Position numbers and translations under genes: made by a program | Shown: in pieces, positions 1-44,200 of the stretch | Layout of the letters: the number at the start of each line of letters is the position of its first letter | Numbering within the stretch: the first letter of the stretch is position 1 | DNA from: Amoebophrya sp. A120 | Taxonomy: Eukaryota; Protista; Dinoflagellata | DNA: 64,000 nt | Assembly (NCBI GenBank): GCA_905178155.1 | Contig: CAJINV010000007.1 | Coordinates: forward strand, 2,151,151-2,215,150 | Reading direction: 5' to 3' | The notes under the pieces: generated by a model | What the model was told of the DNA's origin: nothing | What the model saw: the letters and a program-made list of their open reading frames with translations, nothing else | The model's database searches: none

Positions 1-959
1 GAAAAGGCTAATAAGGTGATCCCGTCCGGCATGGCATCAGAAGTGCTACAATACTCACATCGATGTCGATCCGAAGGAGCATGGAGCGTTGAACAACTCT
101 ACGAATCAACTTCAGCGACTTTGCTCCCGGTCCCGGATCTTTTGCACAACAACTCTATCAAAAATCATGTGCTGTTTCTGTCTGGCAATCACCGCCACCT
201 GGCTGTTGCTTTATCTTCGTGAATTAGCTTTGACTTGTTCCTGTTCGTCTTCGTTCATCATATTTGGATACCCTTTGATGAAGCACCGTCTTGGTACACT
301 TTGCAAACGCAATTTGGCAAAAGCCTCTTTTAGAAGTGCGAGCGAAAAGCTGCACCTCTAGCTATCATCGAATTACAAAATAACAAGACAATATGGGAAG
401 TAGAACGAGAAGTAAATTTCAAGGAGCGTGAAGAAAACGATTGTTCTTAGGTTCGCCGGCAGCGCATAGCCGCGACGTTGAGGTACTTCGACACAACTGA
501 AAGTTCTGAAAAGAGCTCTGAGTTTGCTATATTCAAGAACGAATTTTGGCGTGACATTTTAGAAAATCAAAATCAAGAAGACTTTACTTTCTCAGTCGAA
601 TACCACGGAGGCAGCAGCCCTTCCTGGCGGTTGCTGCTCCACGATTCGCTGATCTCTTCTCGGGTCTTTGAACGCTACAGATAAATAAGGTCTTATTAAA
701 AGAGGTTGCAATCTATATGTAATTCGAGGAAAAAACTGAAGGGTCTTGTACTACAACACTAGCTTTGGTTTGTTGTTCTTGTTACATGAGGGAGAAATTC
801 TAATTTACCATTTCTGGAGGCGAACAAGTTCAGGCTGCTCTCCTTACCGTCTAACAGTAACAAGGAAAAACAGAATCACAGGAAGATAAAAAAGCGGTAG
901 CAGATGTTGATATTCCTGGTTGTTCCTCTCCTCTGCTACTCGCCCTCTTCCACCACTCC

Positions 960-3900
960 TCACACCTCATCTCCCATGTACCGGTCTTCGAGCCAGCTTC
1001 GAGCGTACTCGTTTTGCAGCCCCGGGTCCAGCAGTTTCGGGTCGCCCTTGCTGGCCTTTTCGAAGAACTTTTTGTCGTCCTTTTTGGAGTCGGAGGGGTC
1101 GTGGTCGCACCGCCACGCGCCGAAGAGAAACAGCGCGAGCATCAGCGCTATCCCGAAAACGGACGCCGTGTAGATGATGAACCCGATGTCTGGGTCCATG
1201 ATGCTGTCCATGTAAGGACAGATCGACCGATATATGTTGTCCGGACACAGCGACACGAATATGCTCCGTAACGGGAAGTCACGGAATATGTTCTTGAAAA
1301 ACCCGTCCTCTTCGTGCAACGCGGACTGGATGTCCACCTTCAGCCCGTCCAGCAGTTGCAGCAGCTCGTCCGCCGACCGCGTGCTGCCGTCGCTGCTCGG
1401 CCGGAAGATCGTGTTCACGATCACCCCCTCGGTCGTCGCTGCGGCGCCCGTGCCCGTTCGGGCCTCGGAAATGGACGCGACGACAAAGGTTTCGGAACTC
1501 ACGCCCAGCAGCTGTCCCAGCTCGTACGTGAAGCGGTAGACGTAGTATTTCCGCTCCGGGTGCTCGTCCGAGCGGTTCCAGATCATGTTATTTACCGCCT
1601 CGGGACTGGACATCTTGATCGGGACCATCAGCGTTCGGCTGTAGATGTCTTCCACCCCGCCCTTCGTCGTGGTCAGCGTGTAGGTTGTTCCGTTCAAATA
1701 CGGGTTCACGCGGTGGCCGACCATGTGCAGCTGCATGTTGGGGTCCACGTCTGGGCTCGTCGCCGCGGCGCTCGACGCGTCCATGGCACCGGAGGATGAG
1801 GTGGACGAAGCGGACGCGTCGGTGGACACGAGCTGCACCACGTTCTGCGCCAAGGCCTCGGCTTCGCTCGTTGCGACCGTGGACTGGGTGGTGGAAAGGT
1901 TGGTGCCCGGCTCGATGAAGATCGGGCTCGTTCGCCCAGGCTTCAGCTGCGACGCGGTTGCGTCAATGAAGAAAGCGGGGTCGGAATAGCTGTGGTTTGT
2001 TCGTATTTTCGAATTCAATGTTGTACATGTAGTCATAATATAGAGAACGCGCACGAAGAGCGGTCGTAGTAGTTTGGAAAGAAAAAACCATCAAACTCGT
2101 ATATCCTTGTACCCGTAAGTCTCCTCATTCTCGCACCTCCCGGCGACCGGGATGGTATCCGGCGGACAGTGGGTCACGCAAACAGTCCCGTCCACCGCCA
2201 CCTTGCCGGGTGGGCAGCTGGGCCGGACGATCACCATCCCGACGTCGTAGATGATATCGCGATGCAAGACGCAGATCCGAAAAAACCCGGCTTCTAAACC
2301 AGTGACCCCGTGAAACGTCAGCTCGTCCGCACCCTGCGAGAGCTCCCTGGAGGTGTAGTTGCTGAAAAACCGCAGCTCCGCGAAGGGGTCGTAGTTGTAA
2401 AACGCCTGGCGCTATCCTGTGCAAAAGTATCGCACTCGTATTGCAATCATGCATTGCAAGTCTTTTTCTCAAGGTAAATCAGCATCACAGATTTTGTTTC
2501 TCATGCTGAGAAAATGCTATGCATTTATACGAGTACGATACTTTTGCACAGGATAGGTACAGGGTCAACGCGTCGATCGTGGTCGTCGCCGTCGCGGTCG
2601 TAAGGACGCGGGGCTCGGCGGATGAGGGGACATCTTCTTCGGGATCCACATCGATGTCGATGCCTGTAGATAATTGTCGTGTAAATAAGATGATGAAGAG
2701 TCATGTATTTGAGGTGGGGAAACTGGGTTCAGCCTCTCTTTTAAGTAATTTATGCTTTTCTTCGCAGACGTAACAATATTCGCCTGTTTCAACATGCTTC
2801 CATCACAAAAGTAACACGCGACAAGTGAGTCTCTTAGTTGCAGTATACCTTCCAGATTCCTTCCCTCGTCTTCTCCTTTCGCGGCCCAGTAGGCGTTTTC
2901 GATTTCGAACGCCGCGTTTTCCAAGGCCCGCTCCGTCTCGACCGAAAACTCCAACTTTGTCTGTTCCGATTCCAGCGCAGCTAGCGTCCGCGCTTTCCCG
3001 AAGTTCGCCTGTTCTACGTGGATATGCATTGCAAAAGTATCGTACTAGTATCCTATAAATCGCAATACAAATTTTTTCAGAAGGAAAAATGGAATTTGTA
3101 ATGCTGATTTCGGTAAGAAATAAGATTTGTCATGCATAATTGCAACCAGCCACCCCCCGGCGGAGGCCGCCGGGGAGGGGGCTGTTCGGTGGAGGTGTTC
3201 CGGTGGGGAAGGTGGCGCCAGCAATGACCGCGCGCCGCTACACAACCAAATAAAAAGAACCCGGCCCATGTTTCGGCTATGATCGGCACCATGCCCGGCC
3301 TTAGTAGCTGCGCGCCGTGGGAAAATGCGCACAGGAAACTATTTCCGGGCGCCAACGTTCAAGACGCCACAAGGGCGACGCACCTGCTGCCAGCGCGCGC
3401 GGTCGCTGTGGGAAAGAAGTTGCGGCCACCCTAGGTGGCCGACCAGGTTAAGGCGTGGCGCCGCGCCCCCTCTGGGGGACGCAGAGCGGCGCACGCACTT
3501 TGAACGCCCGCTCTGATCTGAAAGCGAAATAAAACAATGCCGGCCGGTCGCTGCGCCCTAGCGAGCTTCTTTAGGGGGCGCCGCGCGCAGACAAGTGGGC
3601 AGGCTGTGCTCCTGGAGGTGGTCCGCGAGAGGGTCCGCGAGAGGGTCCGGGAGAGGGTCCGGGAGAGGGTCCGGGAGAGGGTCCGGGAGAGGGTCCGGGA
3701 GAGGTTCGGAGAGGGTCCCGGAGAGGGTCCGGGAGAGGGTCGGAGAGGTCCCGAGAGGGTCCGCGGAGAGTTAAAATAGAGGTTCCCGGAGAGGGTCGCG
3801 GTAGAGGGTCACATAGAGGGTCGCCCTATACTACGCACCCTCTCGGACCCTCCCGACCCTCTCCCCCTACCCTCTATTTGACCTCTGTCCACCCTCTACC

Positions 3901-6900
3901 TACCCTCTTCGGGCGTATAGCGCCGCTATAAGGGCCGACATACTACCCACCCTCTCCCTACCCTCTCCTTTACCTCTCGCTTTACCTCTCCCCGACCCTC
4001 TATCTTTCCCCGACCCTCTACTTTACCTCTCCCAACCTCTATTTTACCTCTATGGAACCTCTCCCCACCCTCTACCGGAACCTCTCCGGCCCCGTTTTCT
4101 TCCATATATAAATATATTAATTAGTACGAGTACGATACTTTTGCACAGGATAGTGGATTCTGCGAAGAATTTCCGCGTCGAGTTGGTCCAGGATTTCGTC
4201 GATTTCCCTATCGGCTTGAGTCTTTTTAGATGCTGTGCCTCTACTTTTGCTGGAAGATGTACTGGGTGAAGATGATCCTGCTAGTATTTGCTCTTCGATC
4301 AATTCTCTTCTCTGCACCGGTTCCCCTGGGGTCTGGAACTCCCGGTAGGAAGCGAATTTGAATGCCGGGTTCAAAACCTCGTTTTGCGCCGCAAAAATCA
4401 TCTCATCCAGCTCCCGGCTTTCGACAATATCCGACCAATGTCTGATCCCGCCCCAGTAGTCGACCTCCTGCAGTTTTCTACCGGATTTAGATGACTTCGA
4501 CGTCCTCTTGTCTAGCTCTTTGTCCTTGCTACTGGCACTACCTCCGGGCAACGCAGCTGCGTTACTTGCAGCTGTGCACAGCATTTCGCTGCTTCCGCAC
4601 TTTGCCCACCCGACCTCGTTCATCTTCGCGGTTCTTCTTTCCTCTAGTCTTTGTCTCAGCTCCCGCTTCATCGTCCGCATGAATTCCTGTCTTCTCCGCA
4701 ACGCCCGGTCTTGCCGCGCGTTGGCCGCGTGGATTTCTAGGCGCTCCATAATCCGGTCGTGCTTCTTCACCTCCGCCTCCAGCCATTCGCTGCTGTGCTC
4801 CAGCGCCGCTTCCGGGACTTTCCCGTCGGGCGAGAAGGCCGCCGGGTTTTCCTTCAACAATTCTTCCAACTCCCGCCTCCTTTCTTCCCGTCGTAGCCGC
4901 CGGGCTGACACCACCGTCGCCCCATTCCCGTTGCTATCCGGCGCCGTGCCGTACAGGTTGGCGAACACCCGGAAGTTGTCCGGGACGGGCGGGCACTGCT
5001 CATCCAAAGGCACGAAACCCACGCGGTCGGCCTCTTCGAGCTGGAAACCCCGGATTTTCAGGGGGACCGGGGCACCTGAGGGCGTGGGAGGGGGGATTGC
5101 AGTTTTTCTTTTTTGTCCTCGAAAAGTTGGTTTACTAAAAAATTGCCAGGATTATTGATGCCAAAGAACTTCTGCACAAACTGGCGTAGATTTCATTTCT
5201 TCATCATGTGTGTAAGCCCGTGTAAGTTCAATCTTCAAAGCACAAAAACGATAAAACGAATCTAACTCATTGACGTACCATCCGGAGCCAAATCCGCGAA
5301 GCACCCGCCCTCCTGCAGTTCCTGCGTGCTGCAGGGGTTGGTGACGACATTTTGGTTGATCGTGCACATGGACATCCGGGGCTCGATCGTGCGCGTACCC
5401 GTTTCGTATTGGTACATACAGAACCTCTGGTTCAAGTGCGGACCGTCGCCGACCATTGGCGAGTTTTTCACTTTGGCTTGCTTGATGTTGTTCACACCGG
5501 ACTTGATCTGTGAAAATGGTTTTTGATTTTGGTCGTGGTGTACTTCTCATGCTCTTTAACGAAAGCCAGAACTTGGAAGACTAGAGTTGTCATGCGTGGT
5601 GCCATGCAGAAATATCAAATATGTACCTTCAACTCCGGGTCGTCCTGTTCTAACGTTGCCGGCAGCTGAAATCCCTGCGATTCCTGAATGGTCAAGGACA
5701 GCGTCTGGTTTCCCCGGAGCACCTGGCCCTGCGCGATGGAAATCGTCAAATCCTGGGTGGTCGGATTCCAGGTCGCCTCGTAGCCCTCGATCATGGCCGC
5801 GTCCGGCCCCGTCATGTGGATCTTCGTGTTCCCCAACGCATTGGTGAAGCCGTAGAGCCGCAAGACGATGTCGTCGTTCGGACCGATATCCACGGTCGGC
5901 TTGAACATCATGCTGAACATGAACGTGGACCGAGCGTTCCGGGGGTCGTAGGAGAAAGTGGAAATGTCAAACGACCGGTCGACCACCTGCGGAGAGGAGC
6001 GAATCGGCTGGGACTTGATGATCTGCTTCGTCGTGGTTTGAATCGTCAACCGCGGGTCGTTGGGGTCTAGCCTGCTGGGCAGGCGGAACACGACGTTGGC
6101 CTGGTTCGACTTTATCGTCATCTTGTGCACCTGGTTCGGCGGGATCTCCTCCCCGGCGCGGAGCGTTAGATCCAGGGTGGAAGCTTCCTGGTTCCACTCC
6201 CCAAAGTACTCGATCACGTCCAGAACCTGCGTGGCGCCGTTGGCTGCGGTAGTTGTGACCTGCACCGTCCTCCGGGAGAAATAGGAATAGTGCAGGAGCG
6301 ACTCACCAGGAGGTGGCTCGAGTTTTGGTTGGGCGACCGCGCAGATGAAACCTAGAAAAAAAAATTGGTTGTCGTGATGTGCAAACTTTTGCTACAATGG
6401 ATTCGCTCAATCAGCCAGAAAGCGCTGCAGCATAGCATGCAGTGTAACCTTACGCACGATGGTATGATGCGTAGCGATAACAATTGCGCAGGAGAGCGTG
6501 AAGGAGAACATGATGCGCGGTGGGACGACAACGCATTCTTACGCTATAGACCAAAAAACTACACGAAGAAACCACAAAACAACAAACGGATCATCCGTTT
6601 CTTTACCCGGCAAAGTCAGCCGTATTGTCGTTCCACTTGGCAACGCGACGTTGGTTGCGAATTCTATCGTCAGATCCATGGGTGAGTTCGGATGCGCCAC
6701 CGACCCGACGGCACCGTAGGACAGCTGCGACTCCGTGAACTGCTTCCCCATGTCGTTTACCCGAGTCGTGAAATTGAACAGTTGCTGCGGAATCCCCGCC
6801 GCGGGGACGGCTATCTTCAAAGACGGGTCGTTCAAGTACATCGCGAAGGGAAGTTTGAACCTCTGATCGTACTCAATGAAGAAGATGGTCTCGACCCCCG

Positions 6901-9900
6901 CTGGCACCGGCGCCAAATTTGGGATGATCTGCGCCCGCAACTCGGACGAAACCGAGTCCCAGTACCCGGAACTGTAGGTGATCGCGCCGGAAGTGATGTT
7001 GGTGTACGCAAACATGGGTGCGTTTTTCCCGGATAAAGTGATGATCCCGGATTCTAGATTACCCGTTCCCACATCTCGTGTCAGCCCACCCATGGTGATG
7101 ATGATGGTCGAGTTCGGCCGAATATCGGAGTTCGCCTTGAAGTTGAACATCACCCTTGCGATGGAATTCGACAGCGTCCCCTGCGGCCCCGCGGCGGATT
7201 CAAACACCATCTCGCTGTTCGTGATGTACTTTTTCCCACCGAGTGCGGGCGTTTTTTTCAACATCTCCTTCGCGATGTACGCGCCGCGGCCCTCTATGTT
7301 CAAGATCCCGTCGTTCTCGGACAGTTTGTCTGGTAACCGGAAGCCCTGGTTTATCTCGATGCGGAACACCGTTGCTTGGGTTCGGTGGAGGATGTGGCCC
7401 TCGCGCACGCGGAGAGTCAAAGTATAGGTCGATTGCGTCCAGTCGCCACGGGAATGCGAGCCGTAGGCGTAGAACCTGTTTTATTTTTGAGAAGTTTGGA
7501 TCATCGAAAGTGGGCAGAAAAATGGACCATCTCTGGTGATGTCATGCGTTGTTTCACAAGACAAACCTCTTCTTGTGCAGATAGGTACCAAGTCCGCAAC
7601 AGAAAAATTTCGCCCCACGACTTACACCTTAAGTAGAACAGTATTTTTACCTAAAAGCATCCGCCCCGGTCAGAACAATTTCCCGACTGCTACACCGGAA
7701 TCCGTACAGGTACAGCAACACCTCGTCTCCCTGGTAAAAGACAATCGACGGCTGGATCGTGAAGGTGACGTTACTCACCACGTCCGGCTCGTTGGGCGAA
7801 AACCGGATTTCCGACCGCGTGAACTCCTTTTGTCCGTTGTTGATCGCAGTGGAGGCCATGATAGATCGCTTCGGGGACTCCACCCCGTCCCAGTCGCGGT
7901 TCCAAATCAGCAACGACGGGTCGTTCTCGTACATCGCCGGAGGGATTTGGAGGTCGACGAAAGTGACGGAAATCAGATTTGGCGCTTGGGAATACAGCGT
8001 CCGGATGACTTTCACAGTGAGTTCGTTCCTGGCCAGGTCGAACACGGCCTCCTGGTTGCGGAAGTACTGGATGTAGCTGCCTACTAACGGCACTTCAATA
8101 ATCTCCGCACTGAAACCCGGAAGACGCAGGTAAATCTGGATAATTTTGTTTTGTTCGCAGGTTAGGTGAGTTCTATCATCTTTTTGTTGATGTAATGCTC
8201 ATCGATCCTCAGCATGGAATTTGCGAACGCGATGCAGAATCAGGCATCGAAGAACGATTTGGTACGTAATAAATGCAGAATAATCACAGCAAGCATGTAA
8301 TATACCAAGCTGTCTTTCCAGAGTGGTGTGTTTGTCTGGAAGGTGAGCGTCACATCTACGTAGGTCTTCGTCATCTCTGCATTCTGTCTCGCCGAGCTGT
8401 ACTGTAGCCGTGACTGGAGGAACATGCGCATCTCTTGGATCTGGGTTTCGAGTTTTTTTGGGAAAAAGTTTGATACGATGCATGGCTTCAACGTTGAAGC
8501 AAACTTCTTTGTCATGCTAAAAAGAGCAGCAAAACAAGAAACAAGAAGATCCACTATCAAAAATCTAAATCATCTCTCTACCCTGTCACTCTGGAAGACC
8601 GGGGTTGGCTGGATCACTTCGTCTACCCCGTCGTAACTGAATGCTGCTACTTTAAGCCGGTTTGAATTCGAAGGCAACGAGTTCGGCAGAATGAAATCGT
8701 CCTTGATCGTCTTAAAGGTGATCATCTTCGACGGCGGCAGCACGGAGTCCGTGCGCAGGAAGAAGGTCAGCGCTTTTGAGGTGTCGTTGTACATTGCGAA
8801 GTACTCGAAGAGCACCCAGTCACTCCCCTCGGTCTGGAAGCCGACGTTTCCCGTCATGTCGGAAGTGCTGGTGGCGGCTGTAGAAATGTTTTCGTTGCAC
8901 ATGCATGCTGCACACTGAGCACGACGCAAAATTTCTTTTCATCTCCTTTTTTTTGCAAAACCTGAATGACAAACTACCATGATTATGATAACAAGCACCA
9001 CCACCACGAAACAAAAAAAAATACAGCTCGACGACAGGAAGTTTTGCCAGCTTTCCGACTGGATGTTCCGGGTTAAATCGGGCAGATACGCCACGATCCT
9101 TGCTCCGTTCCTCAACTCGCTGTTGACCTGTACCTTAATGGACACAACCGATTCCGCGTTCGACAATGCGGGATCGAACCTGACTTCTACGTGCGTGAAG
9201 TAATTCACCCGGATGATCTGCGGCACGGCTTTGATGGGTTGCGGCGTCCCGTTTTCGGGTAGGGTGTAACTGTTGGTCGGCTCGGTCCCGAGCTCGTTGG
9301 GCACGTAGGAGAGCTGACTGGCTATCAACGTGAAATCCAGCGGGTTTTCCGATAGCTGGTCCGGCAGGACGAAGCAACACAGCTCCAGATTCGCGTTCGC
9401 CGAGTGCAGAATTTCGTACTTGTCTTTCACTTTCAATTGCAAACTGTACTGCACAAAATCGAAATACGCCGGCGTTTCAAACAACCCGTTTTGGTCCGTG
9501 TTGTACGCCGTCGTGGGGTTCTCCCCCACCGCCGGCTGGTTCGTGCCCGTCACCTCAATTTGCCTCTTGTTCGGGTCCGTCGGGTGGGGTTTCAGGTTTG
9601 AGGGCAGGCCAAAGCCCGGGAGGGCGAAGGTGAGGGCCACGAGTTCCACGGAGTTCGCGACTTGCTTCAACGTGATCGAGGGTCGGAGGATGATTGTCAA
9701 CTTCGCGGTGACACCAGGTCCGGACGGGTTGTACGCGAGAACGGAGACGGGGAAGGTTGGGGGACAAAGCTCTTTACGGAATTGCTGGTAAGCGTCTTCC
9801 GTGCAGACGTTCTGGTGTTATGATGTTTTTGTTGTCCCTTGTTAATTGTCATGTAGGATTCTACGGAGAGAAAGCAAAGCATTTCTGTTTCTCAAGCATG

Positions 9901-11214
9901 AGCATGACACGAAATAACAAATTCCTCTAGCGAAATCGAGGCATACACGAATATTCATACCTGCCACACCGCAGCCACTTGCAATTGCCGCTCCGCGTGT
10001 GCTTCTGCTAATTCTCGGCCCTCCAACCCGTCTAATTTCACGTCGTCCTTGATTTGTTTCAACTTTTCTTGCCAGAACACGGGTAAGAGCTTTTCCCGCT
10101 CTTCCTCTTCTGTGCTGCTTTTCGTTACGATGTCAAACGTTGGCGGGTTGTCTGTGTCGTAATTTCTGTCTAAATTCGTGGAGTCCGATGTTGTCCCTAC
10201 AGACACGACCCCGTCGCTGTGGTAGGCAAACTCATCCTGCAGTTCCTGCTCCAGTTTCCGTTTCTTCTGCCGCTTCTTCTGCTGGTACTGCTTCTCGGCT
10301 AGATGCGTAGCGGTTTGCTGAGAGGACGAGGTGGTGGATAGGGAAGCTGTAACACCGACCGAAGCGAAGTTGCTAAATGCAGCTATGGTGGAGGCGAAAA
10401 GCCCAAATTTGGTGCTCCTCGACGACGCTGATGCTGTGCTGTGTGGTCCGTCATGTCGTTTGTTGCACCGGAACGAATTCAAATTCTTGCCCTTGATATT
10501 CACAAACTGGTGCTGCCTTGGACTTGTTGGGGGTGTTTTTCTTTTCGGTTTTATGGTCATAGCAGGATCATTTTCTTTGTGCTGTCCCGAGAAGCAATTG
10601 CTGGAAGAAGAACTGCTCGGTGAAGGTGGAGATGACGGAAATGTTTGTTCTCTTGGCGTTGTTTTCGTCATTAAGTTTGCAGCAACATATTGTTCCCTCG
10701 GTCTACTACCTTGCTCCTCTTCGTCTTCCTTCGGAACCATGTCGAAGTTGCCAAGCAGTGGCGCAGCACTGGTCATCCGTATTCTTGGCAGCCTGTTCAT
10801 GCGGTCAACCTTTTGAATTTGATCAAAGACGTGCAATGAGGGATGTGCGCGTATGAAACTTGCAGAAGCTGCTTCTGGAATGCACCTTGGTGACGGGGGC
10901 TCTGCAACTCTCGATGTTCTGCAACTCGCGCTGGTGAAACTAACGTCAAAGCTATCTCCACTGCTGGGTTTGCTTTCTCTTCCTGGTGCATCAGCATCTT
11001 GCGTCGGGGGCGCACCTATCCTAGCCAAAAAAGAAGGCCTGCCGACCTCGCCAGCAGTGCTCGTGCAGCCCGGTTTATCCGCAAAAAAGGATTTTGTTTC
11101 TTGACCTCCTCCACCAGTCGGGCTACATCTTGACGTTTGCTCCTGCGGCCCTCCAGAACAAGTTTGTCCTCCTGTACTGGAGGGCGAGGAGCCACCTGAG
11201 GAGAAAAGGCCCAT
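960..11214 (-). CDS. Giant (~2,425 aa) multi-exon membrane/surface protein with ~7 beta-rich repeat modules and a C-terminal TM helix
   Basis: Deduced exons: 11214-9961, 9784-9025, 8877-8582, 8440-8306, 8135-7651, 7475-6607, 6351-5627, 5507-5279, 5075-4153, 3017-2849, 2663-2556, 2407-2113, 1989-960. They sum to 7278 nt and stay in frame. Ten introns are GT-AG and two are TIR introners. Recurrent motifs: LTFALPGF, IYLRLPGF, VLLYLYGF, IRLTLPGF, IVLRLYGF and NDPxLxI. TM segment IGFIIYTASVFGIALMLALFLFGAW. Confidence 0.8.
2413..2555. mobile_element. Introner (MITE-like intron), family A, 143 bp
   Basis: TIR tatcctgtgcaaaagtatcgcactcgta (2413-2440) and tacgagtacgatacttttgcacaggata (2528-2555), 27/28 matching. 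Degenerate 5-bp TSD ggcgc/ggtac. Removal gives in-frame ...ALTLYQAFYNYDP... Confidence 0.9.
3146..4124 (-). mobile_element. Non-autonomous Helitron-like element (979 bp) nested in an introner
   Basis: Inserted exactly at an A|T site that is empty in the sister copy (ctcgta|ttgcaa), with no TSD. The minus-strand 3' end is CTGG, preceded by the hairpin CCCCGGCGG-CCT-CCGCCGGGG (3155-3175). The 5' end is CTAATTAATA. Confidence 0.75.
3615..3770 (+). repeat. 12-bp tandem array (GAGAGGGTCCGG)n
   Basis: Directly visible, about 12 units. A degenerate complementary ACCCTCT-rich array follows at ~3836-4090. Confidence 0.95.
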
Positions 11215-12171
11215 CCTGAAGAATTCACTTCAAGATGGGACCTCTGAGTTCCTCCACCTATGATTTTCTAGCATGCAAAATTTTAATTTTGTTGAATTCA
11301 TCATGCGGGTACGTGAGGGTGCGCTTTGCAACATATGGAGGGGTACTCCCAGGGACGAAGGAGAGAAAAGAGCTGTGAAATGTCGTGATCATGTGTGCCC
11401 TCTCCTTCACGAATATCATATAATTTGAATTGCAGCTCACTCCGACACGTACGACGATTTGCGTTTGCACAATACCACACGACGCAGCTGGAAAAGCAAA
11501 ATTAGTCTCCACCTCTAGCGATATGAACTCCAACAAAATAACGAAGGGAATCATTGTTCTTCACTCTGCAGAACCATAGTGGCGCGCTGCTCCCTCGTCA
11601 ATCAACTCTCCTCTAAAAACTCACACTCATTACACTCATTCACTTCGATGTCTACTTCCACTCGCGGTCCTCTATCTCGATCTCGAACTCAAGCGCGCTC
11701 GATTAGTTACGCTCGCTGTAGTTGAATTGATGTTTCCGCTTAGAAATAGCAGCGCTTTGTTTCTTGAGAACATCAAGGGGACCGCATATTACCATGAGAC
11801 ATTGACATTTGCAAAGACTTGCCGTTTGCGTTTACCGCCCTATAATTTGGCTTTTTTTATATAATTGGTCGGAGAAGATGAACGAGATGTTGTTGAAAGA
11901 TTGCGACCAGATCATTCCTGCAGTGTCTTTTTGAAGATTCACCAAACTTTCTCCTACCCAGGTCCACGCTCTCGAAAAAGTGCATTTTCGTGGTCCATGT
12001 TGGTGCGGAAGAAAAGGCACAAAAACTTGCTGGACGTACAACTCATCATTGGATGCCATGTTGAGCAGCAGTTATCGGTGTCAGCACCGCCCCGCCGCGT
12101 TAAACAGAATCTCTATGGTTATCATATGAAATAAGCCTACTCCAGGAGACCGTCCACTCTTCGCACCCTCG

Positions 12172-13578
12172 TCATCCTCCGGCCCCCTCCGCGGGTCCTT
12201 CCTCCTTGTACAGAATCTGCTGTACCTCTTTTACCAGCTTCGGCACCGTCATCTGTGCTATCGTGTGACTTGCCGTGGGATCTTCTGGATCCAGGGTCTG
12301 GCTGAGAATCTCGATTTCGCGGAGTTTGTGGAAGTAGTAGTCGCGCTCGGTTTCAAGCCCGTCCACGGTCACCTTCGAGCGTGGGTGGATTGCAAGAATC
12401 TCAACACATGTTAGAAGATCAACTTGGTCTGAGGATGCATAAATAGGAACACGGTTTCAGTTTTTTGTTGACGTAAGGGCGTGACAAGAAGATGAAATCC
12501 AAGCAATATTACTTGCATATTCCGCAACTCCTCCCGCAGTGATTCGACTTCTCGCGGGTCTCCGCGCTGTGAGGCTGGTATTCTCGCTTTCCCTGCGCCA
12601 CCAGCGCCACTTGGGGCTGTGCTCGGGAGCGCGGCTGGGATTGTGTTTTTTGCAGTCCCAGCATTCCGAGGAAGTCAGAGTCACCAAATGTGCTGACTTG
12701 GCAAACAAAAGTCAAAAATGAACAAAGCTTTATAAAGTCAACAATCACACCTCGGCTGGAGCTTGATGAGCTACTCGCACTCTTCTGCCCGCCCTCTGAG
12801 CGAGAAACCGCTCGCTGTGCAGGTCGGCGGCTGTTGCTGGGTTCGCTGACCATCGATTGCCCGGTCGTCATACCGCCGGGTCGCGCCCAATCGAACAAGG
12901 CCTTGCCGTCGCGCCTCTCGATGGGGTCGTAGGGGAGACCCTGGAATTTTTACGTGGTTCGTGTTCTTCATGCCGATGAAACGAACAAAAAGATGAAAGC
13001 TCTGAAAAAATAATAATGCAACTAGTGCTACATATCATTTTTATACCGCGAATGTGTGGTCGTAGTAGCACTTCATCCACTGCAGAAACTCCAGGTTGTC
13101 TTGGTATTTCCCTTTTATCAACTTGTCCACATCGATATTTCGGTCGATCTTCATCTTATCAAACGCTGCTTGCAGGATTTTGTAGTTGGGAATGTACTCG
13201 TGATCCACTTTTGCCGTCCAATTTACCCGCTTCATCTGCACCACGCCGCCGGGGTGGCAGGCGTCCAGCAGCTGGCAGTAGATGGCACCGGAGGCGCATT
13301 GCTCGACCTGTCGAACAACAAAAAGGCAAGTTCTACTATGTCATTCACATTTTTTACCACACAAGCACAGCATGACGCAGTTTGCCATTCACAAACCGCA
13401 CACGCACCAGCGACACACACACACATTAGTGCACCTTCTACTTCTGTACCTTCGACAGGCTCGTCAGTAATCGTTCGTTTGCCCAGTGCAGGAGCTCTGA
13501 CCTCCCCACGAAAAATGCAGCGTCCATCATACCCACGTTACTGGGATGGCCGCGCCCAATGCCTCCGCGAGCAGCCAT
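12172..13578 (-). CDS. EB1: Microtubule end-binding protein EB1 (RP/EB family), 5 exons
   Basis: CH domain: FVGRSELLHWAN...VEQCASGAIYCQLLD...NYKILQAAFDK...DVDKLIKGKYQDNLEFLQWMK. EBH motif: VDGLETERDYYFHKLREIEIL. Introns are GT-AG. Confidence 0.95.
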
Positions 13579-14450
13579 GTCTCTTGATGCCCGCGGTAGT
13601 CGAATGGCTTTAGACAGGTTTTTTTTACTCGCGATTTGGATTATTTGCACTGCGTGCTGCTCCCCGGTCAATTCACTTTCGCACAAATAAACGTGGTCGT
13701 GGTGGAGGTGGACCCTCGAGCCACCAGAAAGTAGTGGTGGCAGGAAAGGCACGCGTCGTCGATGAAGATGCTACGATTTTTGCGGTTGGGCGGACTGAGT
13801 AGCGCAGCAATAACAGTTTGTCATGGTAGAAAATTGTTGTGCAGGAGCAGAAGTGGTTTGTACTTATTTTTGTTTTCACCTTCACGTGTCTATCAGGATA
13901 AGCGATCACGTTCTAACTTGCGCTTGTTGTCGAGAACCGTAGTCACTTGTCACCGTTCGTTAGGGGGCCAACTCAGATGCATTTGATTTTGTGTTTAAAT
14001 TTTTTCAGCAATAATCTCGCCGCAAATTATACGGAAACATGATTGATGCGCCAGCCTCTTTGAAACCACAAGCTTTGCAGCTCCATCTCCAACGAGCAGC
14101 GACTCGGAAAGGCCGGCCATATTTGCACTCTTTTTCTCTAAAATTGAACAAGCAGGAGATGCAACCATCTTCAAAAACAAAAAATTTGTTTCACGAGCAA
14201 AAATGCTTGAGAGGGAAAAAACGCAGACCGGCGGGTCACGTCGCGTCGACGTCGTGGTCTCACACCAGAGCAGCCGCACTTTGTTCGCCTGAATCTTTCA
14301 TACGTCAACGTCGCCATTCCCGAACACATCCAAATGACATGCTTTCTACGAGCTTTTCGCTTGTCTATGTTTTCGCTTTGGAGCCGTAAAACTTGATGCG
14401 ATTCTGATTTCCGCGCTGCATACTTTGTGCTTGTGATACCTATGACATTT

Positions 14451-16951
14451 TTACCCAGTTGTCTCTACCTGAATCTTTTCGTATTTCATGTGAAACACAT
14501 CTTCTTCCATTTCCCCATCACATGTGTACGAAACCTCCCTCAGAAACTTCCTTTCCTCCTCTGCTCCAGACACGCACAGTGGCACCAGCGACGCACTGTA
14601 TTCCTGCGCTGCAATATGCACTGCAAATTGAGTATCTCAACATCTTTTTCTTTATCACGTGCGAACTGCAAACAACAATAAACATGGTAAAAACGAAGTC
14701 ACTGTCACTGACTCCGTGCTTACTACAAAGTCATACATTTTGATTCATATTCCTTTTTGTAAAAACACGACCGGCATGTTGAAGTAGAAGTAGTATGAGC
14801 GCGATACTTTTGCAGATGATATGCCGTGGCTTTGATCAGAAAAGCCTGGACCTGGTGGGGAAAGAGAATGCCAGTGATCGTCACATGGTGCCGCTCGATG
14901 TCAGCTTCTTCGCTTTCGTTTTCCTCTAGAGGAATGTCAGTCGCTTGCTTCGCGTGCTGTTCTTTGTTCTGGTCCTTCTCTTGGTTATCTTTAGCGTCTG
15001 CTTCCGCGATTATGTCTTCCATAGGGTCATCCTCATCCATGTTCAACTTCATAGGCGCAACCTTGTCGTCGCTGTTTAACTTCGGCCGTGTCGTGCTCTT
15101 ACTCGTCGCGTTTTCATCTTTTTTGCTCGAGTTACCCTGCTTGCTTGAAGATGTTCCAGCGCCTGCTCCCGCGGCACCAGTGTTGTTGCTGCCAGTACTA
15201 TTGCTCATCGCGACCCCCTTCACCGTTTCCACCATGGTTTTGGCACTACACCGCTTGTAGCTGGCGTTTAAGAAGGGTCTTTGCGCCACTAGTCTCGGCA
15301 CCGGGTTTTTGGTCGGGTGTTGCAAGTAGCTGCGAACCTGTTCCATGCGGTACACGTCGGCGAATGCCGCAACCGCACCAACCCCTTTGACAAAAACCGA
15401 CGTGTCCGAGGATTTTCTTTTCCCGACGGCCACATTTGCCCTTACCCCACGGTCTATGTTCAGGAAATTCTCTAGCACTTGCCTGTTTTCGAACTGATTG
15501 CTGTCAAGAACCCCCGCTCTCTCGCCGCCCGCAGCCGCGGTCGCGGCCGTTTGCTTTTTCAAATCGAAGCTCTCGGCGGGGCAGTCGAAGGGCACCTGGT
15601 GCTTCTTCAATAAATCGCGAAACTCTGGCTTCGTCGGGGACGCGTGGATCTCCGTGTCTGACCGGAACATCACCACCATGGACTGCCCGTGGTCTGCGAC
15701 GAACATACTGTTGTGATTCGCGTTCATCTCGTCCAACGCAAGCTCGTCCGAAGAATCAAAATCATCGTCGTCGGAGGCAGATGAGTCGCTGATGATTTTG
15801 TTCGATGGTGGTTTCCTAATGTTTTTCTTATTTCCGCCCCCGCTCGCCGCGCCTCTTGCAGGCGTTTGGAGTTGGAGCTTTGACATTTTGTTCTTTTCAC
15901 GACCGTTGGGAAGGTTCTTTTTGTCATTATCATCATCCACCTCCTCCTCGTCCTCGCTAAACGCGACTTTTCTCCTGCTTTTCGGCATCCTGTTCTTTCT
16001 TCGCAGTTCCATCTTTCTTTCCCGTTCTCGCACTGCGTCCCCGTGGTCGCGGGCAAGTCTGACCAGGTCCAGAAACGCGTGCGACCAGCTTTTTGCAATC
16101 TTCTGGACTTCGTGCTGGTGTGGCGGGATAAGTCTGTTTTGTTGATGTCCTCCACCTCCTATGGCGTTCTGAGAAAGAACCTGACCCTGCTCTATTGCAG
16201 CGACGCTGACCGCATTGAATTCGTAATATTCCAAAGCTGCGTTCGTGTGGGCCATGCACATAGCGATTTGCTCCAAATTTTCCTCCACGTCGATATGCTC
16301 CGAGATCGGGTGTCGCTCCAGTAACCGTCTCACCTGGTTGAAATCTTCGGGTCGAAACGACCCTAGACCCGGCGCGGTCAGCCACTTGAAACTCCAGTCA
16401 TCGGCGGCGAAATGGAGTTTCTGAAACACTGCGGTTTCGTCCCGCGCGAGTAGCTTATTCCCGTGTTTGTTGTACTCACTATTCTTGTAATTATTTCCGA
16501 GAATATTCGGCGAACTAGACCAGTGCTTCGACCGTTTTCTCTTCGACTTCTGGATGGACCGAAGCAGGATATTATGCTGCTCTAGAAAGTGGTCGCGGTT
16601 TCCTCTCCCTCGTCTGCCCGTCGACTTCGCGCCGAGCAATGCTCCTCTGCGCTTCCGCTCCTCGATTTGCTCCCTTCCCGGCGTGGAGAGGTGTTGGTGA
16701 TTGTCCTGCTCTCCGTCGGGATGGTTCCTCACAACCTCGTTGCGCTGCTTCGCCCCGAAATACGCATTCACGCTTTCAAACTTGTCCTCGCTTGCGTTTA
16801 ATATTTGGTGACCTGCAGCGGCACTGGACGAGGACAACTCAGCAACAGGATCACCTCCCGCTGCTAGATCTTTCGCCAACCTTTCCCGTTCTGCGGCTTC
16901 CGCGGCCCTGCGCTCGCGCAGCTGCTGCTTGATCGCCACGCGGGCACGCAT
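14451..16951 (-). CDS. DONSON: DONSON-like (downstream neighbour of SON) replication factor
   Basis: Motifs DWSFK, SWSHAFLDL, SPTKPEFRDLLKKHQVPF, VFVKG, PRLVAQRPFLNAS and VTITGILFPHQV occur in the DONSON order. The last exon (14609-14451, AQEYSASLVPL...FLREVSYT) joins after introner removal. Confidence 0.7.
14615..14821. mobile_element. Introner with family-A-like TIRs, 207 bp
   Basis: Right end gcgatacttttgcagatgata; left end tatgcactgcaaa. Degenerate TSD tgcaa/tgccg. Removing the element plus 5 nt gives an open 53-codon terminal exon. Confidence 0.75.
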
Positions 16952-18111: not shown

Positions 18112-20148
18112 TTACTTCTTGACGCCCACATCCATGACCGGTTTCTGTTGTATACAGTTTTTTTTCGCATATTATGAATTCTTGTTGAGAGCAGGAACCT
18201 AGTACACGACAATCATATTTGGTGGCCGAACAGAATCACAAATCGAGTTCGAGTTTATGCTTTTGCATGACAGAAACCAGAAGCACAACATCTCTACTGT
18301 ACCACGAAGTAGCTTGGGTTTGTCCTGACCGGCGGGGTGATAGCCCACGGTGGCTGCACGCGCACGTCTGGCAAGCTGCCGAAGGTCGGGGTTTCTGCCT
18401 GGGTCAGCTGTTTGAAGGTCATCTGACCGTCCTTCTGCTGGGCGAAGCACGGGAAGGTGTCACTGTTTGATTGTATGTGGTTTTTCATTGTACTAAAATG
18501 TGATCTTCATCTGTGTGTTCGTGATCTCACGCGGCGTGAAGATGTTCACACAGCGCTACATGGACTACACTTGTCATGCAGAGCCGGAACGAAAACAACG
18601 CCCTGTAAATCTTCGATAACGGGAAAATAACATACCGGCTTGGAGCTAAGCTTTCTCCCTTCATCTTCTCGTAGACACCGGTGTTGTGGTGCAGAACATC
18701 GTGGTTCCTGACGGGATCGTGACCACCATATCCGCTTGGAAGACCGGTCTTGACCTGGATAGTTTAGATAAACATGAATACTGACTTGGCTACATCACAA
18801 ATTGACCTAAAAAATACACAACACCTGAAGAAGTTGCCCCTAATAGACAGCGACGCTACATCCCGGATGTTAGTTGCAAGTGTATACATGGTGAGTGCTT
18901 TAGTTTTGGTTTCCCATGGCCGCGGATTTTTAAAATTTTATTTCTATTGACGACGAAAAGCGGACACAAGAAGTTCACTCTCGGAAGATAGCTGTGACTC
19001 TGCTTCTGGTGCTACAAGAACACTGCAATGTCTCTCGACTTCCAACAACCGCGAAAATTCAAAATTTTATTTTTATTAAGCTAAAAACTTGCGAAAGTTT
19101 AAAGCTTTATTTGTGTTCAGGTTCACGGAACAGCGGATATTACGTGTGAATAGCCGGTCCATTTAGATGTGCAACGTAGAAAATGTAAGGAATTTTCAAT
19201 CCGCGAAATTTTAAGATTTTATTTTTATTGAAAAACCAAATCCGCGAAATTTCAAAATTTTATTTTCATGCACTACGAAATCGCAAAGCATCCTGACATG
19301 GAAGATTATAAGTACATGAAATCATAGCAGAAGCTGCGACCGCCGCAGTCGAGCGTACGCGAAGCAGCGCTGGTACCGCCGACCGAGCGAGCAGCGCCAC
19401 CGCCGACCGCCGAACAGCGACGACCAGCGCCACCGCCAAGCAGCGCCGACCGCCGAGCAGCGCGACCGCCGAGCAGCGCCACCGCCGACCGCCGACCGCC
19501 GACCGCCGAGCAGCGCCACCGCCGACCGCCGAGCAGCGCCACCGCCGACCACCGACCACCGACCGCCGAGCAGCGCCGACCGCCGACCGCCGACCGCCGA
19601 CCGCCGAGCAGCGCCACCGCCGAGCAGCGCCACCGCCGGCCGCCGAGCAGCGCCACCGCCGGCCGCCGAGCAGCGCCACCGCCGGCCGCCGAGCAGCGCC
19701 ACCGCCGACCGCCGAGCAGCGCCACCGCCGACCTCCGACCGCCGAGCAGCGCCAACCGCCGACCAGCGCCACCGCCGATCGCCGAGCAGCGCCACCGCCG
19801 AGCAGCGCCACCGCCGATCGCCGAGCAGCGCCACCGCCGATCGCCGAGCAGCGCCACCGCCGGGCAGCGCCACCGCCGAGCAACGCCGCGACCGACAAGC
19901 GTCAAGCAGCGCGAACGCCCGGATGAAGTACAACAAGTAGTAGCTGAACACTCGCTATTTCTATTAACTAGCATCCACGCTGCAACATATCGTACCGAGA
20001 CTTCCCGATTGTGCATGGTATCGAAGGCGGTTGTTCGGTACATGTTCTTTGCCGCGTCCCGGAACTCGGTGTGCCACTCCCACTGTCGGCTGAGGTCGCC
20101 CTTCAGGCAGGCCTCCTGGATCTCCTCCTTCGTCATAGGTCGCGCCAT
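18112..20148 (-). CDS. Small 4-exon protein with a PSGYGGH motif; putative microtubule-inner/cytoskeletal protein (FAM166-like motif)
   Basis: GT-AG joins give MARPMTKEEIQ...MYRTTAFDTMHNREVS|VKTGLPSGYGGHDPVRNHDVLHHNT...R|DTFPCF...PPWAITPP...SYFV|KPVMDVGVKK*. The start context is TCAAAATG. Function is inferred from the motif only. Confidence 0.75.
19365..19890 (+). repeat. GC-rich intronic minisatellite (CCGCCGAGCAGCGCCA and CCGCCGA units)
   Basis: Directly visible mixed 7/16/23-bp units inside the GT-AG intron 18755-19995. Confidence 0.95.
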
Positions 20149-41258: not shown

Positions 41259-44200
41259 CTACCCCAGCCCCTGCGTTATGACGTCGAAAAACGAGACGAC
41301 AAACGCGACGGTCGTAAACGCCAGACAGAACTGCGCCACCTGCTGCATCCGCTCCCGGGAGATCCACTTGTGCGGCAGCCCCCAGTGCGCCTTGCTGCTC
41401 CGATCGTGGAGACTGGACCGCATCTCCAAGTACCCCTCTGCCTCGTTCGTCAAGTAGACCTCATTGTACTTGAGAAACACGATGAACGGCACGACAAAGT
41501 TCACAAACGTGCAGAACAGGAGAGACCCATAATTCAAAAAATCCTGCGTGCCCTCGCCGTGGTTCCAGGTTTGCAGGGGAATGGCCAGCGTCCAGGGGAG
41601 GGCGATGGCCCAAATATTCGCGACGAACGCGGTCTCGCAAAGCTGATTGTGCGGTTTGATTTTGCGCTTTGAGTAGAGGTGAATTCAACTTCGACCTGTT
41701 GATGAGGCAAGTTACTTGATGCCAGAAGCAGAACAAACACAATCCCATGTAGTGAGTCCGCAGCAACATACTACTATACCTCTTGCTCCAGCAGGTTGTA
41801 GCGACACACGATGCTGCAGAGCGGCACCCCGGTGAGCGCCGCGACCAGGGGAAAGGTGTAGCAGGTGAAGCGAACGAGAAACGAGTTTGTTCTGTGAATC
41901 ATCACAGTCAGGAAGTTCGCTTGCTCCGAAAGTAGGTGACCGAAGAAAGCGGCGCCGAGGATGCCGACCGTGAGGTAGATCACCGTACATATCCGGAGTA
42001 AAAACGTCCCCACGCCAGAGTTGTCATGCAGATTTGCAATGACAGGAACATTTGTAATGCGCATCGCCAGGAGAGGCATTTTTAGTCGTGTTTTGGAATT
42101 TGTAATGCTGTAAACAGGATGAGCAGATGGATTTCTGATGCAGCTGGCCTTGCGAACCTGCACTACACTACGGACTGCAACTTCTGATGCGTGACCCCCA
42201 AAAGTTCTAGGTTTGTGTTGCAAAGTCCCCATCTTGACTCCGGTGTGGGGATGTTTTTACTCAGGATAGTACAGAGCGACATGGAGAACTGATTTCAATA
42301 ATATTTGCTTCTTTATTTGGGCAAGAGAAACAGAAAGAGAAACACTCCACCGAAGGAGCGACGCAGCAAAAAAGGCTACAGCAAAGCCTCTGTTACTTTT
42401 GTTCGTGCTAGTAACTCATCGCATGCAACCCTGAACAAGCTTTCTGTTTCTGTTTCTTTCCTTCATCAAAAAAGTAAAGAATCTCCCACAAATCATACCC
42501 ACACACTCCTGCTGACAGACACTTCGGGGCTTTTCTCGTTGAGCCAGGAGGGGATGATCATGCACACAGCGAAGTTGGACAAGACCGTGCCCATTAGCTG
42601 CGAGTATTTGCCGTCGCCAAACGGATCCGTTTTGAAGTACGTCTCTACCTCGTGCACGTCGTTGGTCCCGACCGGCGGTGGCTTTGGTTTCGGCTTACTA
42701 TCTTCACTACTTGAAGATGGTGCAGCCGTGCGGCCCTTGTTTTGTGGTTCCTCGGCCGAAGGCGGAGCTGAAGACGAGGTGGAGGAGGCTTTCTGCGTCG
42801 TCTCGTCTTTATTCTCGTGCGCGGTGTGGGTCGTTTCTGTGCTAGTACTACCATGTCTATCTTGTTGTTCCCGACCTCTATTATCACTTCCCGTTCTTAC
42901 CGTTGCGTGTGCGTCACTTGACGTGCTGCTGGCGCTATCGCTGCCTGTCTTGGTTGTGTCTTTCGTACCTATACTTGGCTTTCCTGTCTCGGCCGAGCTT
43001 TTTGACGATGGGGAAGATGTTGGGCTTGCATCTGTTGTAGGACCTGAAGGTGCCGATTTGCTTGTCTTTGTGTCTTCATCTGACTTCTTTGCTGCTCGAC
43101 TAGTCATCTCTGAGGAATCGCCGGCCACCTGCGTCAACTCTGCTTGTGCTTGCTGCTCCTTTTTTCCCGCGTTACTACTTGAAGCATTGTCCACCTTTAC
43201 CTTTGGAGAGGGAGGTAGATCCCCCACTGGTGATACGATGTTCTCCGGTTTCCCTCCTGTAGCCTGTTCCACTAGCTCCAACTCTCCCGCTGGCCCAGCT
43301 GCTGCTGTTATTCCAGAAGCAGCTTCGGAAGTAAACCTCATTTCACTTACTGCGCCTGAGTCTTCTGATCTCGTCTGCAGTAACGAGAGCGGATGCTCAG
43401 GAAGAGTTCTACTTCTGGGGTCGTCATCTTCTGCATGCCTCATATCGCTGCCCGTTCTTGAGGGAGATGAGGCTAAAGGTGCTTCAAAAATGTCTGGATG
43501 CGTGGTTATTTTCCTGGTCTCATTCAGCATCGACATCACAGTCACCACCGCTGCTGTGCCCGCGGCTTTCACGGCGTCATGTGTGGTGCCAACTAATTGC
43601 TGCGATTTTTCTGTAGCTGCTGTCGCTAGGCTGCTTGCCGTTGCCCTCAATGCGGTTGTAGCGGCTGTTGCCGCAGCAGCTCTGGCGGCGTTCATGCTAC
43701 TGGTGGTGGACGTCGTTGCTGTACCCGCTGCAGCGCTAGTACCGACCATCACAGCTGATGTTGATGAGGAATTTTCTCCGATCCCACTCCCGTCTGTTCC
43801 GCCACAAAGTAAGTCGTAGACCCACAACGCGAAGGTGCAGAAGCAGAAGATGAACGTGACTACCTGCACCGGCACATTGTCCTCCATATTCACGATGGCC
43901 AGGGGCACGGCGAGCAGACAGCAAACCAAATACCCTTCCGTGATTGCGGGGGAAACAAAGGGGGTGTTGACCGGCTCCTGAATTTTTCCGGACAAGGAGT
44001 CCGTGTCCTTTTGGATGCAGTGCAAGCCGAACCCGTTGCTTAAGCCCGTCGCCACTCTACTCGAATCAATATCCGTTAGTGATGCGAAGTCCAGGGAGAA
44101 GCCGCAATTCCGGCCCGTCAACTCCAAGATCAGACCGTCGATCCCCTGCGCGGTTGTCACAATCGAGACTACGTTCAATGTCTGCAACGCGCCGAACAGC

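What the first reader, a model, noticed from the sequence alone, without database searches (positions are those of the whole stretch)
2413..4152. The same introner is inserted in both orientations in one gene, suggesting orientation-independent splicing
Seen: 3055-3145 (ataaatcgcaatacaaattttttcag...atgctgattt...catgcataattgcaa) aligns to the reverse complement of 2441-2528. The two family-A copies, ~470 bp apart, therefore face opposite ways, yet both must be removed to keep the 7,278-nt frame. Inference: the TIRs present the same end sequence on either strand, so internal strand-specific branch-point or polypyrimidine signals may be dispensable.
Basis: partly seen in the sequence, partly recalled or inferred. 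Interest (0 to 1): 0.78.

Follow-up and report, generated by a model that had tools for sequence, protein, structure and literature searches.

The report
Transposon introns spliced in either orientation
Two copies of an already published hairpin-ended transposon intron, likely of the marine parasite Amoebophrya, sit back-to-back in one gene and both are missing from transcript assemblies, and predicted gene directions put the family about half each way, so the splicing machinery likely reads the folded ends rather than a one-way sequence.

Summary
2413-2555 and 3023-4152 are copies of one terminal-inverted-repeat (TIR) family with 5-nt target duplications, facing opposite ways in a minus-strand 2,434-aa gene. 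RNA-like contigs from two samples lack both at element+5 nt without GT-AG; keeping either truncates the protein. In a sister strain, 92 of 157 copies with a confident host strand split 51:41 (p=0.35). The elements match the published Amoebophrya A120 introner class (PMC7789003), noted many times by this scan on other DNA; either-way introners with canonical sites are published for Polarella. I found no orientation tally for A120 in print. Corrections: copy 2 is 1,130 nt with a 975-nt Helitron-like insert; the frame is 7,305 nt; the family's two ends differ at positions 4-7; the element is pseudo-symmetric for ~50 nt, so orientation-independence does not prove a branch point dispensable; canonical introns here mostly lack a pyrimidine tract anyway. 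Likely mechanism: the TIR hairpin forms on either strand and cuts fall at fixed offsets set by transcript direction. Efficiency by orientation was not measurable.

The parts
960..11214 (-). Host gene CDS, 13 exons, 2,434 aa; one predicted C-terminal hydrophobic segment (KD windows 2359-2368); function not identified
   Evidence: Joints of RNA-like contigs (nine canonical joints listed, the tenth, 8877/9025, inferred from contig coordinates); ORF; hydropathy; Pfam: no hit above cutoff in 11 exon frames
2413..2555 (-). Introner copy 1 (143 nt), orientation 'M' in the transcript; near-perfect ~29-nt TIRs, TATCCTG at both ends
   Evidence: hairpin z=-12.0 on the transcript strand, z=-9.9 on the other
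2408..2412 (-). Decayed downstream (in transcript) 5-nt target-site copy of copy 1, 3 of 5 matching; at least its first three nt leave with the intron
   Evidence: joint 2407->2556, both=2; compatible cuts 0+5, 1+4, 2+3 only
2556..2560 (-). Upstream target-site copy of copy 1, kept in the mRNA for at least its first three nt
2664..2848 (-). Canonical GT-AG intron lying between the two introners
   Evidence: joint 2662->2848, CT..AC on +
3023..4152 (-). Introner copy 2 (1,130 nt; 155 nt without its insert), orientation 'P' in the transcript; family-typical unequal ends (TATCCTG at 5', TATGCAT at 3')
   Evidence: joint 3017->4153 skips 1,135 = element+5; TIRs pair across the whole element in the predicted fold
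3018..3022 (.). Perfect 5-nt target-site duplication of copy 2 (other copy 4153-4157)
   Evidence: sequence; both=6 at the joint
3146..4120 (-). 975-nt, 63% GC repeat nested in copy 2, 32 nt inside the 5' end; Helitron-like (between A and T, ends CTGG, 21-nt palindrome 9 nt from the end, but starts TT not TC)
   Evidence: DNA-like run X6 holds insert-free forms (joint 3138->4119) and depth ~1,100-1,400 over the insert against ~27 in single-copy bins (not a copy number)

Best explanation
These are two opposite-facing copies of a small transposon-derived intron that are both absent from transcript assemblies at element-plus-5-nt, and they are likely removed because the terminal inverted repeats fold into a long hairpin on either strand and the splicing machinery likely cuts at fixed offsets from its base. 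Shown: family, 5-nt duplication, opposite orientation, clean absence from contigs, no GT-AG. Shown for copy 1: the 5' cut lies 0-2 nt before the element and the 3' cut 3-5 nt after it, so polarity comes from the direction of the RNA. Predicted: the hairpin. Inferred: the asymmetric middle of the element carries no required signal, and the catalyst is a relaxed major spliceosome (PMC7789003 reports nearly all spliceosomal proteins but no detectable U1 snRNA), the hairpin replacing site recognition.
For: Both orientations gone from one contig in X1 and X2. Hairpin on both strands, z -12.0 and -9.9, 0 of 200 shuffles. No orientation bias: 51:41 of 92 (95% CI 0.45-0.66), 36:30 of 66, 19:18 of 37 at stricter cut-offs; classifier 100% and 98.5% correct at that cut-off in cross-tests on the window (73/123 and 42/65 positions kept of 150), 7 of 7 Pfam-anchored frames agree. 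Five of 12 loci with two or more confident same-strand copies hold both orientations. GT/GC-AG reachable by any slide in only 6 of 91. Perfect-duplication rate and interior divergence do not differ by orientation (p=0.33, 0.90). Copy 2 is removed although 975 nt separate its 5' TIR from the interior and its first sense box is 1,018 nt in. Copy 1 is removed with positions 4-7 paired and copy 2 with positions 4, 6 and 7 unpaired, so that loop is not the signal. Summed coding likelihood weakly favours keeping the upstream duplication copy in both orientations (10 + 10 copies).
Against: No experiment; the catalyst is untested. Evidence is assembled contigs of one study whose RNA nature the tool only guesses; raw-read run X10 laid 0 reads, so efficiency by orientation is unknown. 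The tally is from a sister strain (contigs differ at 17 of ~449, 18 of 244 and 35 of ~594 exon letters), uses predicted strands, drops 65 of 157 uncertain copies, and samples only copies with one exact 20-nt end; an uninformative classifier would also give 50:50. A second strand check by predicted canonical introns agreed in only 12 of 19, though that predictor visibly picked up introners. At L013 one joint skips 152 nt rather than element+5 = 155, unexplained (other strain; site may be empty there). The element is pseudo-symmetric, so sequence signals on both strands are not excluded.
Confidence: 0.5

Rival explanations
1. Sequence signals are needed but are supplied on both strands: a branch-like AYGAY and a UUUUGCA stretch in the 3' TIR arm (or the subterminal box) are read by U2/U2AF, so orientation does not matter although a branch point does.
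For: AYGAY at -25..-21 from the element end in 25 of 41 P and 21 of 51 M copies; AYGAY in -55..-10 of 7 of 10 canonical introns of the host gene against 1.6 in shuffles. Box within 28-50 nt of both ends in 36-37 of 41 and 44-47 of 51.
Against: The motif was chosen on those same 10 introns (antisense control 4 of 10); in 11 independently predicted window introns it was 2 of 11 against 1.6; the 21 of 73 in loci is contaminated by introners. About half the copies lack the motif at that place, and it would lie inside the predicted stem.
Confidence: 0.25
2. A non-spliceosomal route: a structure-specific endonuclease and ligase excise the hairpin with a staggered cut and release a linear or circular RNA, as proposed for Euglena non-conventional introns.
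For: No conserved dinucleotides (6 of 91); no strand bias; staggered cut at copy 1; U1 snRNA undetected (PMC7789003 section 10); Euglena introns are defined by paired ends at offsets N3 and N5-6 (PMC12501133 abstract).
Against: Nearly complete spliceosome is present; 15% of A120 canonical introns share the same DR/IR layout; no enzyme identified here.
Confidence: 0.17
3. The joints are reverse-transcriptase skips across a strong hairpin between short direct repeats, not in vivo splicing.
For: Hairpin plus direct repeat is the recalled recipe for such artefacts (PMC2923612, search listing only); only cDNA-derived contigs were seen.
Against: Copy 1 is skipped precisely with only 2 nt of repeat; retention truncates the protein; 64 of 92 copies in predicted coding sites have stops in all three frames, including copies beside AAA-ATPase, aminotransferase and KAP domains.
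Confidence: 0.05
4. Splicing is polar: the TATCCTG end must be 5', and copy 1 is an interior flip between the TIRs rather than a reversed insertion (my own idea).
For: The two ends differ: TATCCTGTGC at the left end in 131 of 157, at the right in 8; both window copies have TATCCTG at the 5' end.
Against: In the tally TATCCTG is 5'-only in 39 and 3'-only in 39 of 92; ends follow the element, not the transcript.
Confidence: 0.03

Closest known systems
Introner elements among non-canonical introns of Amoebophrya sp. A120 (Farhat et al. 2021, PMC7789003; seen: abstract, sections 10, 11, 12, 16, passages, supplement text search; figures not visible)
   Same: IR starts TAT, seven less-conserved nt, then As; 5-bp direct repeats (Fig. 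S19 legend); non-GT-AG ends; predicted hairpin; repeated families.
   Different: All 4 main-text uses of 'orientation', and the 2 of 3 supplement uses shown, concern gene order; no orientation tally seen. Here the 'less-conserved' stretch is shown to be a systematic left/right difference at positions 4-7.
Polarella glacialis introner classes 1, 2, 3, 6, 7, 8, 10 and Aureococcus introners (bioRxiv 10.1101/2020.10.14.339549, passages; the Aureococcus paper itself was not held)
   Same: [quoted passage not shown]
   Different: Those use GT/GC/GA donors and AG acceptors from the element or TSD and the preprint reports a bias to one orientation; here no canonical sites and no detectable bias.
Euglena non-conventional introns (PMC12501133, abstract and passages)
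   Same: MITE-like paired ends, no GT-AG, junctions at fixed offsets from a paired core, direct repeats at borders.
   Different: Euglena signature is N3-CDG ... CH'G-N5-6|R and was tested by knock-in; the termini here are TAT...ATA with ~29-nt TIRs; unrelated lineage; 'orientation' has 0 occurrences in that paper.
Non-autonomous Helitron (hallmarks from PMC4778049, passages) - for the nested insert only
   Same: Insertion between A and T, CTRR 3' end, subterminal palindrome about 10 nt from the end.
   Different: Starts TT, not TC; a 2-nt TT ambiguity at the borders; no second copy with ends was available to confirm them.

Membership tests
Amoebophrya A120 introner element | Terminal inverted repeat starting TAT-N7-AAA | tested here: met
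   All four ends of the two copies; 157 relatives
Amoebophrya A120 introner element | 3-5 nt direct repeat at the borders | tested here: met
   5 nt: perfect in 117 of 157, other lengths at background; copy 2 perfect, copy 1 3 of 5
Amoebophrya A120 introner element | Removed from transcripts without GT-AG | tested here: met
   Joints in X1, X2; contigs only, RNA nature guessed by the tool but they also lack the canonical introns
Amoebophrya A120 introner element | Repeated genome-wide | tested here: met
Amoebophrya A120 introner element | Window belongs to strain A120 | tested here: inconclusive
   Inferred from the IR motif, which PMC7789003 gives as strain-specific; no named genome for the window
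Canonical U2 (GT/GC-AG) introner, Polarella/Aureococcus type | GT/GC donor and AG acceptor from element or TSD | tested here: not met
   Observed joints have none at any slide; 6 of 91 relatives could. GA donors were not counted.
Spliceosomal intron | Lariat with 2'-5' branch; dependence on U2/U6 | not testable with these tools
   No lariat or inhibition data
MITE (non-autonomous TIR transposon) | Autonomous partner with the same TIR and a transposase | not tested
Helitron (insert 3146-4120) | A|T target, CTRR-3', subterminal hairpin | tested here: met
   (z -3.1, 1 of 200 shuffles)
Helitron (insert 3146-4120) | 5'-TC start | tested here: not met
   Starts TT
Helitron (insert 3146-4120) | RepHel partner; other copies with the same ends | not tested
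   Only a 48-nt internal hit among 152 loci

The most novel reading that the evidence does not exclude
Amoebophrya has a second, branch-point-free splicing route that excises any TAT...ATA hairpin as a purely structural object, in either orientation and whatever lies inside, with a staggered cut that exactly cancels the 5-nt target duplication, making insertion of these transposons (and of anything nested in them) nearly free for genes.
Probability: 0.2. Interest if true: 0.85.

Novelty: already known. Interest (0 to 1): 0.4.

Why it matters
How more than 60% of Amoebophrya introns are removed without GT-AG is an open question (PMC7789003). An unbiased two-way orientation narrows it: any required signal must lie in the symmetric outer ~50 nt or in the fold. 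It gives ready natural test pairs (one family, one gene, both directions) for lariat mapping and direct RNA sequencing, and helps explain the family's spread: neither orientation appears purged. It also matters for annotation, since a same-orientation filter (passage of PMC12130899) would split such families. The class itself and either-way introners are published, so the surprise for a specialist is modest.

Tried and rejected
Polar-termini idea: rejected. Hidden canonical sites inside the TIR (GT at AAAA|GTATCG, TTTTGCACAG): not used by the observed joints. Branch-motif discovery: circular, null (2 of 11), contaminated; inconclusive. Strand check by predicted canonical introns: 12 of 19 agreement, predictor unreliable. 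L013 as a second cut-register test: the RNA contigs are from another strain; they join the exons in one 286-codon minus-strand frame across a P copy, an M copy and a third family but may be empty sites, and the 152-nt skip is unexplained. TIR in viral contigs: 0. Rfam over 2300-4300: 11 matches, all far below gathering scores. Pfam on host exons: nothing above cutoff; host function not identified. Global alignment of the two copies discriminates orientation poorly because the TIRs match either way (158 v 114). No whole genome was available for a true genome-wide tally. The supplement of the bioRxiv preprint and the figures of PMC7789003 could not be seen and may bear on the 'no tally in print' claim.
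Full report
Observation. The interior of 2442-2526 matches the reverse complement of 3052-3150 with local score 56 (same orientation 20; 5,000 dinucleotide shuffles mean 16.0, maximum 32), and a scan of the window finds no other comparable match. The repeat finder shows four TIR ends at 2413, 2555, 3023 and 4152. Copy 1 is 2413-2555 (143 nt). Copy 2 is 3023-4152 (1,130 nt): a 155-nt family member carrying a 975-nt, 63% GC insert at 3146-4120. The gap between them is 467 nt.

Removal from transcripts. Four runs were laid on 700-15200. X1 and X2 (contigs; RNA is the tool's guess; two samples, one study) each give one 8.1-8.2-kb contig with nine listed CT..AC joints (GT-AG on the minus strand) plus 2407->2556 (148 = 143+5) and 3017->4153 (1,135 = 1,130+5). 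The DNA-like run X6 shows zero depth for these joints; raw-read run X10 laid nothing and is no test. Copy 1's duplication has decayed at two of five positions, which fixes the cut to 0+5, 1+4 or 2+3 nt before/after the element; copy 2's perfect duplication is uninformative. This fits, but does not by itself prove, the 1+4 register in earlier unreviewed notes of this scan.

What it is. The ends follow TAT-N7-AAA, given as the IR motif of Amoebophrya A120 introner elements in PMC7789003 section 11; the supplement legend shows 5-bp direct repeats. The organism is inferred from this motif; no genome was held. These gave 158 complete elements, 157 with family interiors; the duplication is 5 nt (perfect in 117 of 157).

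Orientation across the family. I called the host strand with a three-periodic coding model trained on the window. Cross-tests within the window were 100% (73 and 123 of 150 positions kept) and 100%/98.5% (42 and 65 kept) correct at score difference above 5. At that cut-off 92 of 157 copies were kept: 51 lie as copy 1 does and 41 as copy 2 does (p=0.35); 36:30 and 19:18 at stricter cut-offs; 46:37 when the frame must be open 60 nt on both sides. Because a blind classifier also gives 50:50, I checked it: of 142 strand-blind flanking frames, 7 hit Pfam at 1e-5 and all 7 lie on the called strand, three beside M copies and four beside P copies; 12 of 13 loci with two or more confident copies call one strand, and 5 of those 12 hold both orientations. 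Against this, a predictor of canonical introns agreed in only 12 of 19, but its top hits are plainly introners. Duplication decay and interior divergence do not differ by orientation. At L013, contigs of all four runs X1-X4 join exons across opposite-facing copies in a 286-codon minus-strand frame, as called, but they come from the other strain and one skip is 152 rather than 155 nt.

How symmetric is the element? TIR positions 1-3 and 8-15 pair in 96-100% of copies, positions 4, 6, 7 in 10-11% and position 5 in 45%: the left end is mostly TATCCTG and the right TATG(A/C)A(C/T). I tested whether one end type must be 5': it is 39 against 39, so no. Copy 1 folds into a hairpin on both strands (z -12.0, -9.9) and copy 2's TIRs pair across 1.1 kb in the predicted fold. 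A GCAT(Y/G)ACA box (wording from an earlier scan note) lies 28-50 nt from both ends in most copies in either orientation, and an AYGAY motif lies in the 3' TIR arm in about half. So only the middle ~50 nt is truly strand-specific. A pyrimidine tract is weak even in this gene's canonical introns (7 of 10 at or below 50% pyrimidines). My search for a branch motif was inconclusive.

Mechanism. Most likely (0.5) the hairpin brings the ends together and cuts are measured from its base, 5' cut at or just before it and 3' cut 3-5 nt beyond, by a relaxed spliceosome; the hairpin is predicted and the catalyst inferred from PMC7789003 section 10. Rivals: symmetric sequence signals in the TIR (0.25), a non-spliceosomal cut-and-ligate route as discussed for Euglena (0.17), reverse-transcriptase skipping (0.05), polar ends (0.03).

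Comparison and novelty. The class is published for A120, and this scan has noted it on many other pieces of the same genome; a word search of the scan for orientation found no matching note. Either-orientation introners are published for Polarella and, by that preprint's account, Aureococcus, with canonical sites and a bias; PMC9860276 allowed opposite-orientation matches in its methods (passage). Paper searches and term searches in PMC7789003 showed no orientation tally for Amoebophrya; subscription papers, figures and the preprint's supplement were not visible. PMC11282704 and PMC12130899 were seen as passages.

Nested insert. On the transcript strand it sits between A and T, ends CTGG and has a 21-nt GC palindrome 9 nt from the end, three Helitron hallmarks in PMC4778049, but begins TT. 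X6 shows insert-free family forms and high depth over the insert. Its clean removal with copy 2 shows the distance from the 5' TIR to the interior does not matter.

Verdict. Real, already-known intron class; orientation neutrality is a useful, probably unpublished constraint on an open mechanism. Interest 0.4.

Noticed in passing
window 3146-4120: Multi-copy GC-rich insert with Helitron-like 3' end, a 12-nt tandem array (3622-3760) and a long internal inverted repeat, nested in introner copy 2 and removed with it.
   Followed up: partly
window 14615-14821: Degenerate third element with family-type ends (TATGCACTGC... / ...GCAGATGATA) and a 3-of-5 duplication, read from the sequence; removal not seen among the joints shown.
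   Followed up: no
window 41990-42268: Introner of another family (279 nt, TAT-N7-AAA ends, perfect 5-nt duplication), 77% like an element in L005.
   Followed up: partly
window 49750-51400: Very GC-rich repeat region, open in several frames on both strands; its short hairpin units resemble 3146-3182 in inverted orientation.
   Followed up: no
window 19396-19925: Tandem array of 23/16/7-nt GC-rich units, preceded by four ~39-nt AT-rich repeats at 18920-19280.
   Followed up: no
window 1-64000: The long frames used as genes all lie on the minus strand, in line with the co-oriented gene blocks reported in PMC7789003.
   Followed up: partly
L013 1369-1522: Other-strain contigs skip 152 nt where element+5 would be 155; both keep the frame. 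Unexplained.
   Followed up: partly
L001, L015, L021, L114: A few copies have the interior flipped relative to the usual end types, suggesting inversion or conversion between the inner TIRs.
   Followed up: no
window introns 1990-9960: Canonical introns start GTA and often have A-rich 3' ends with a possible AYGAY motif instead of a pyrimidine tract.
   Followed up: partly
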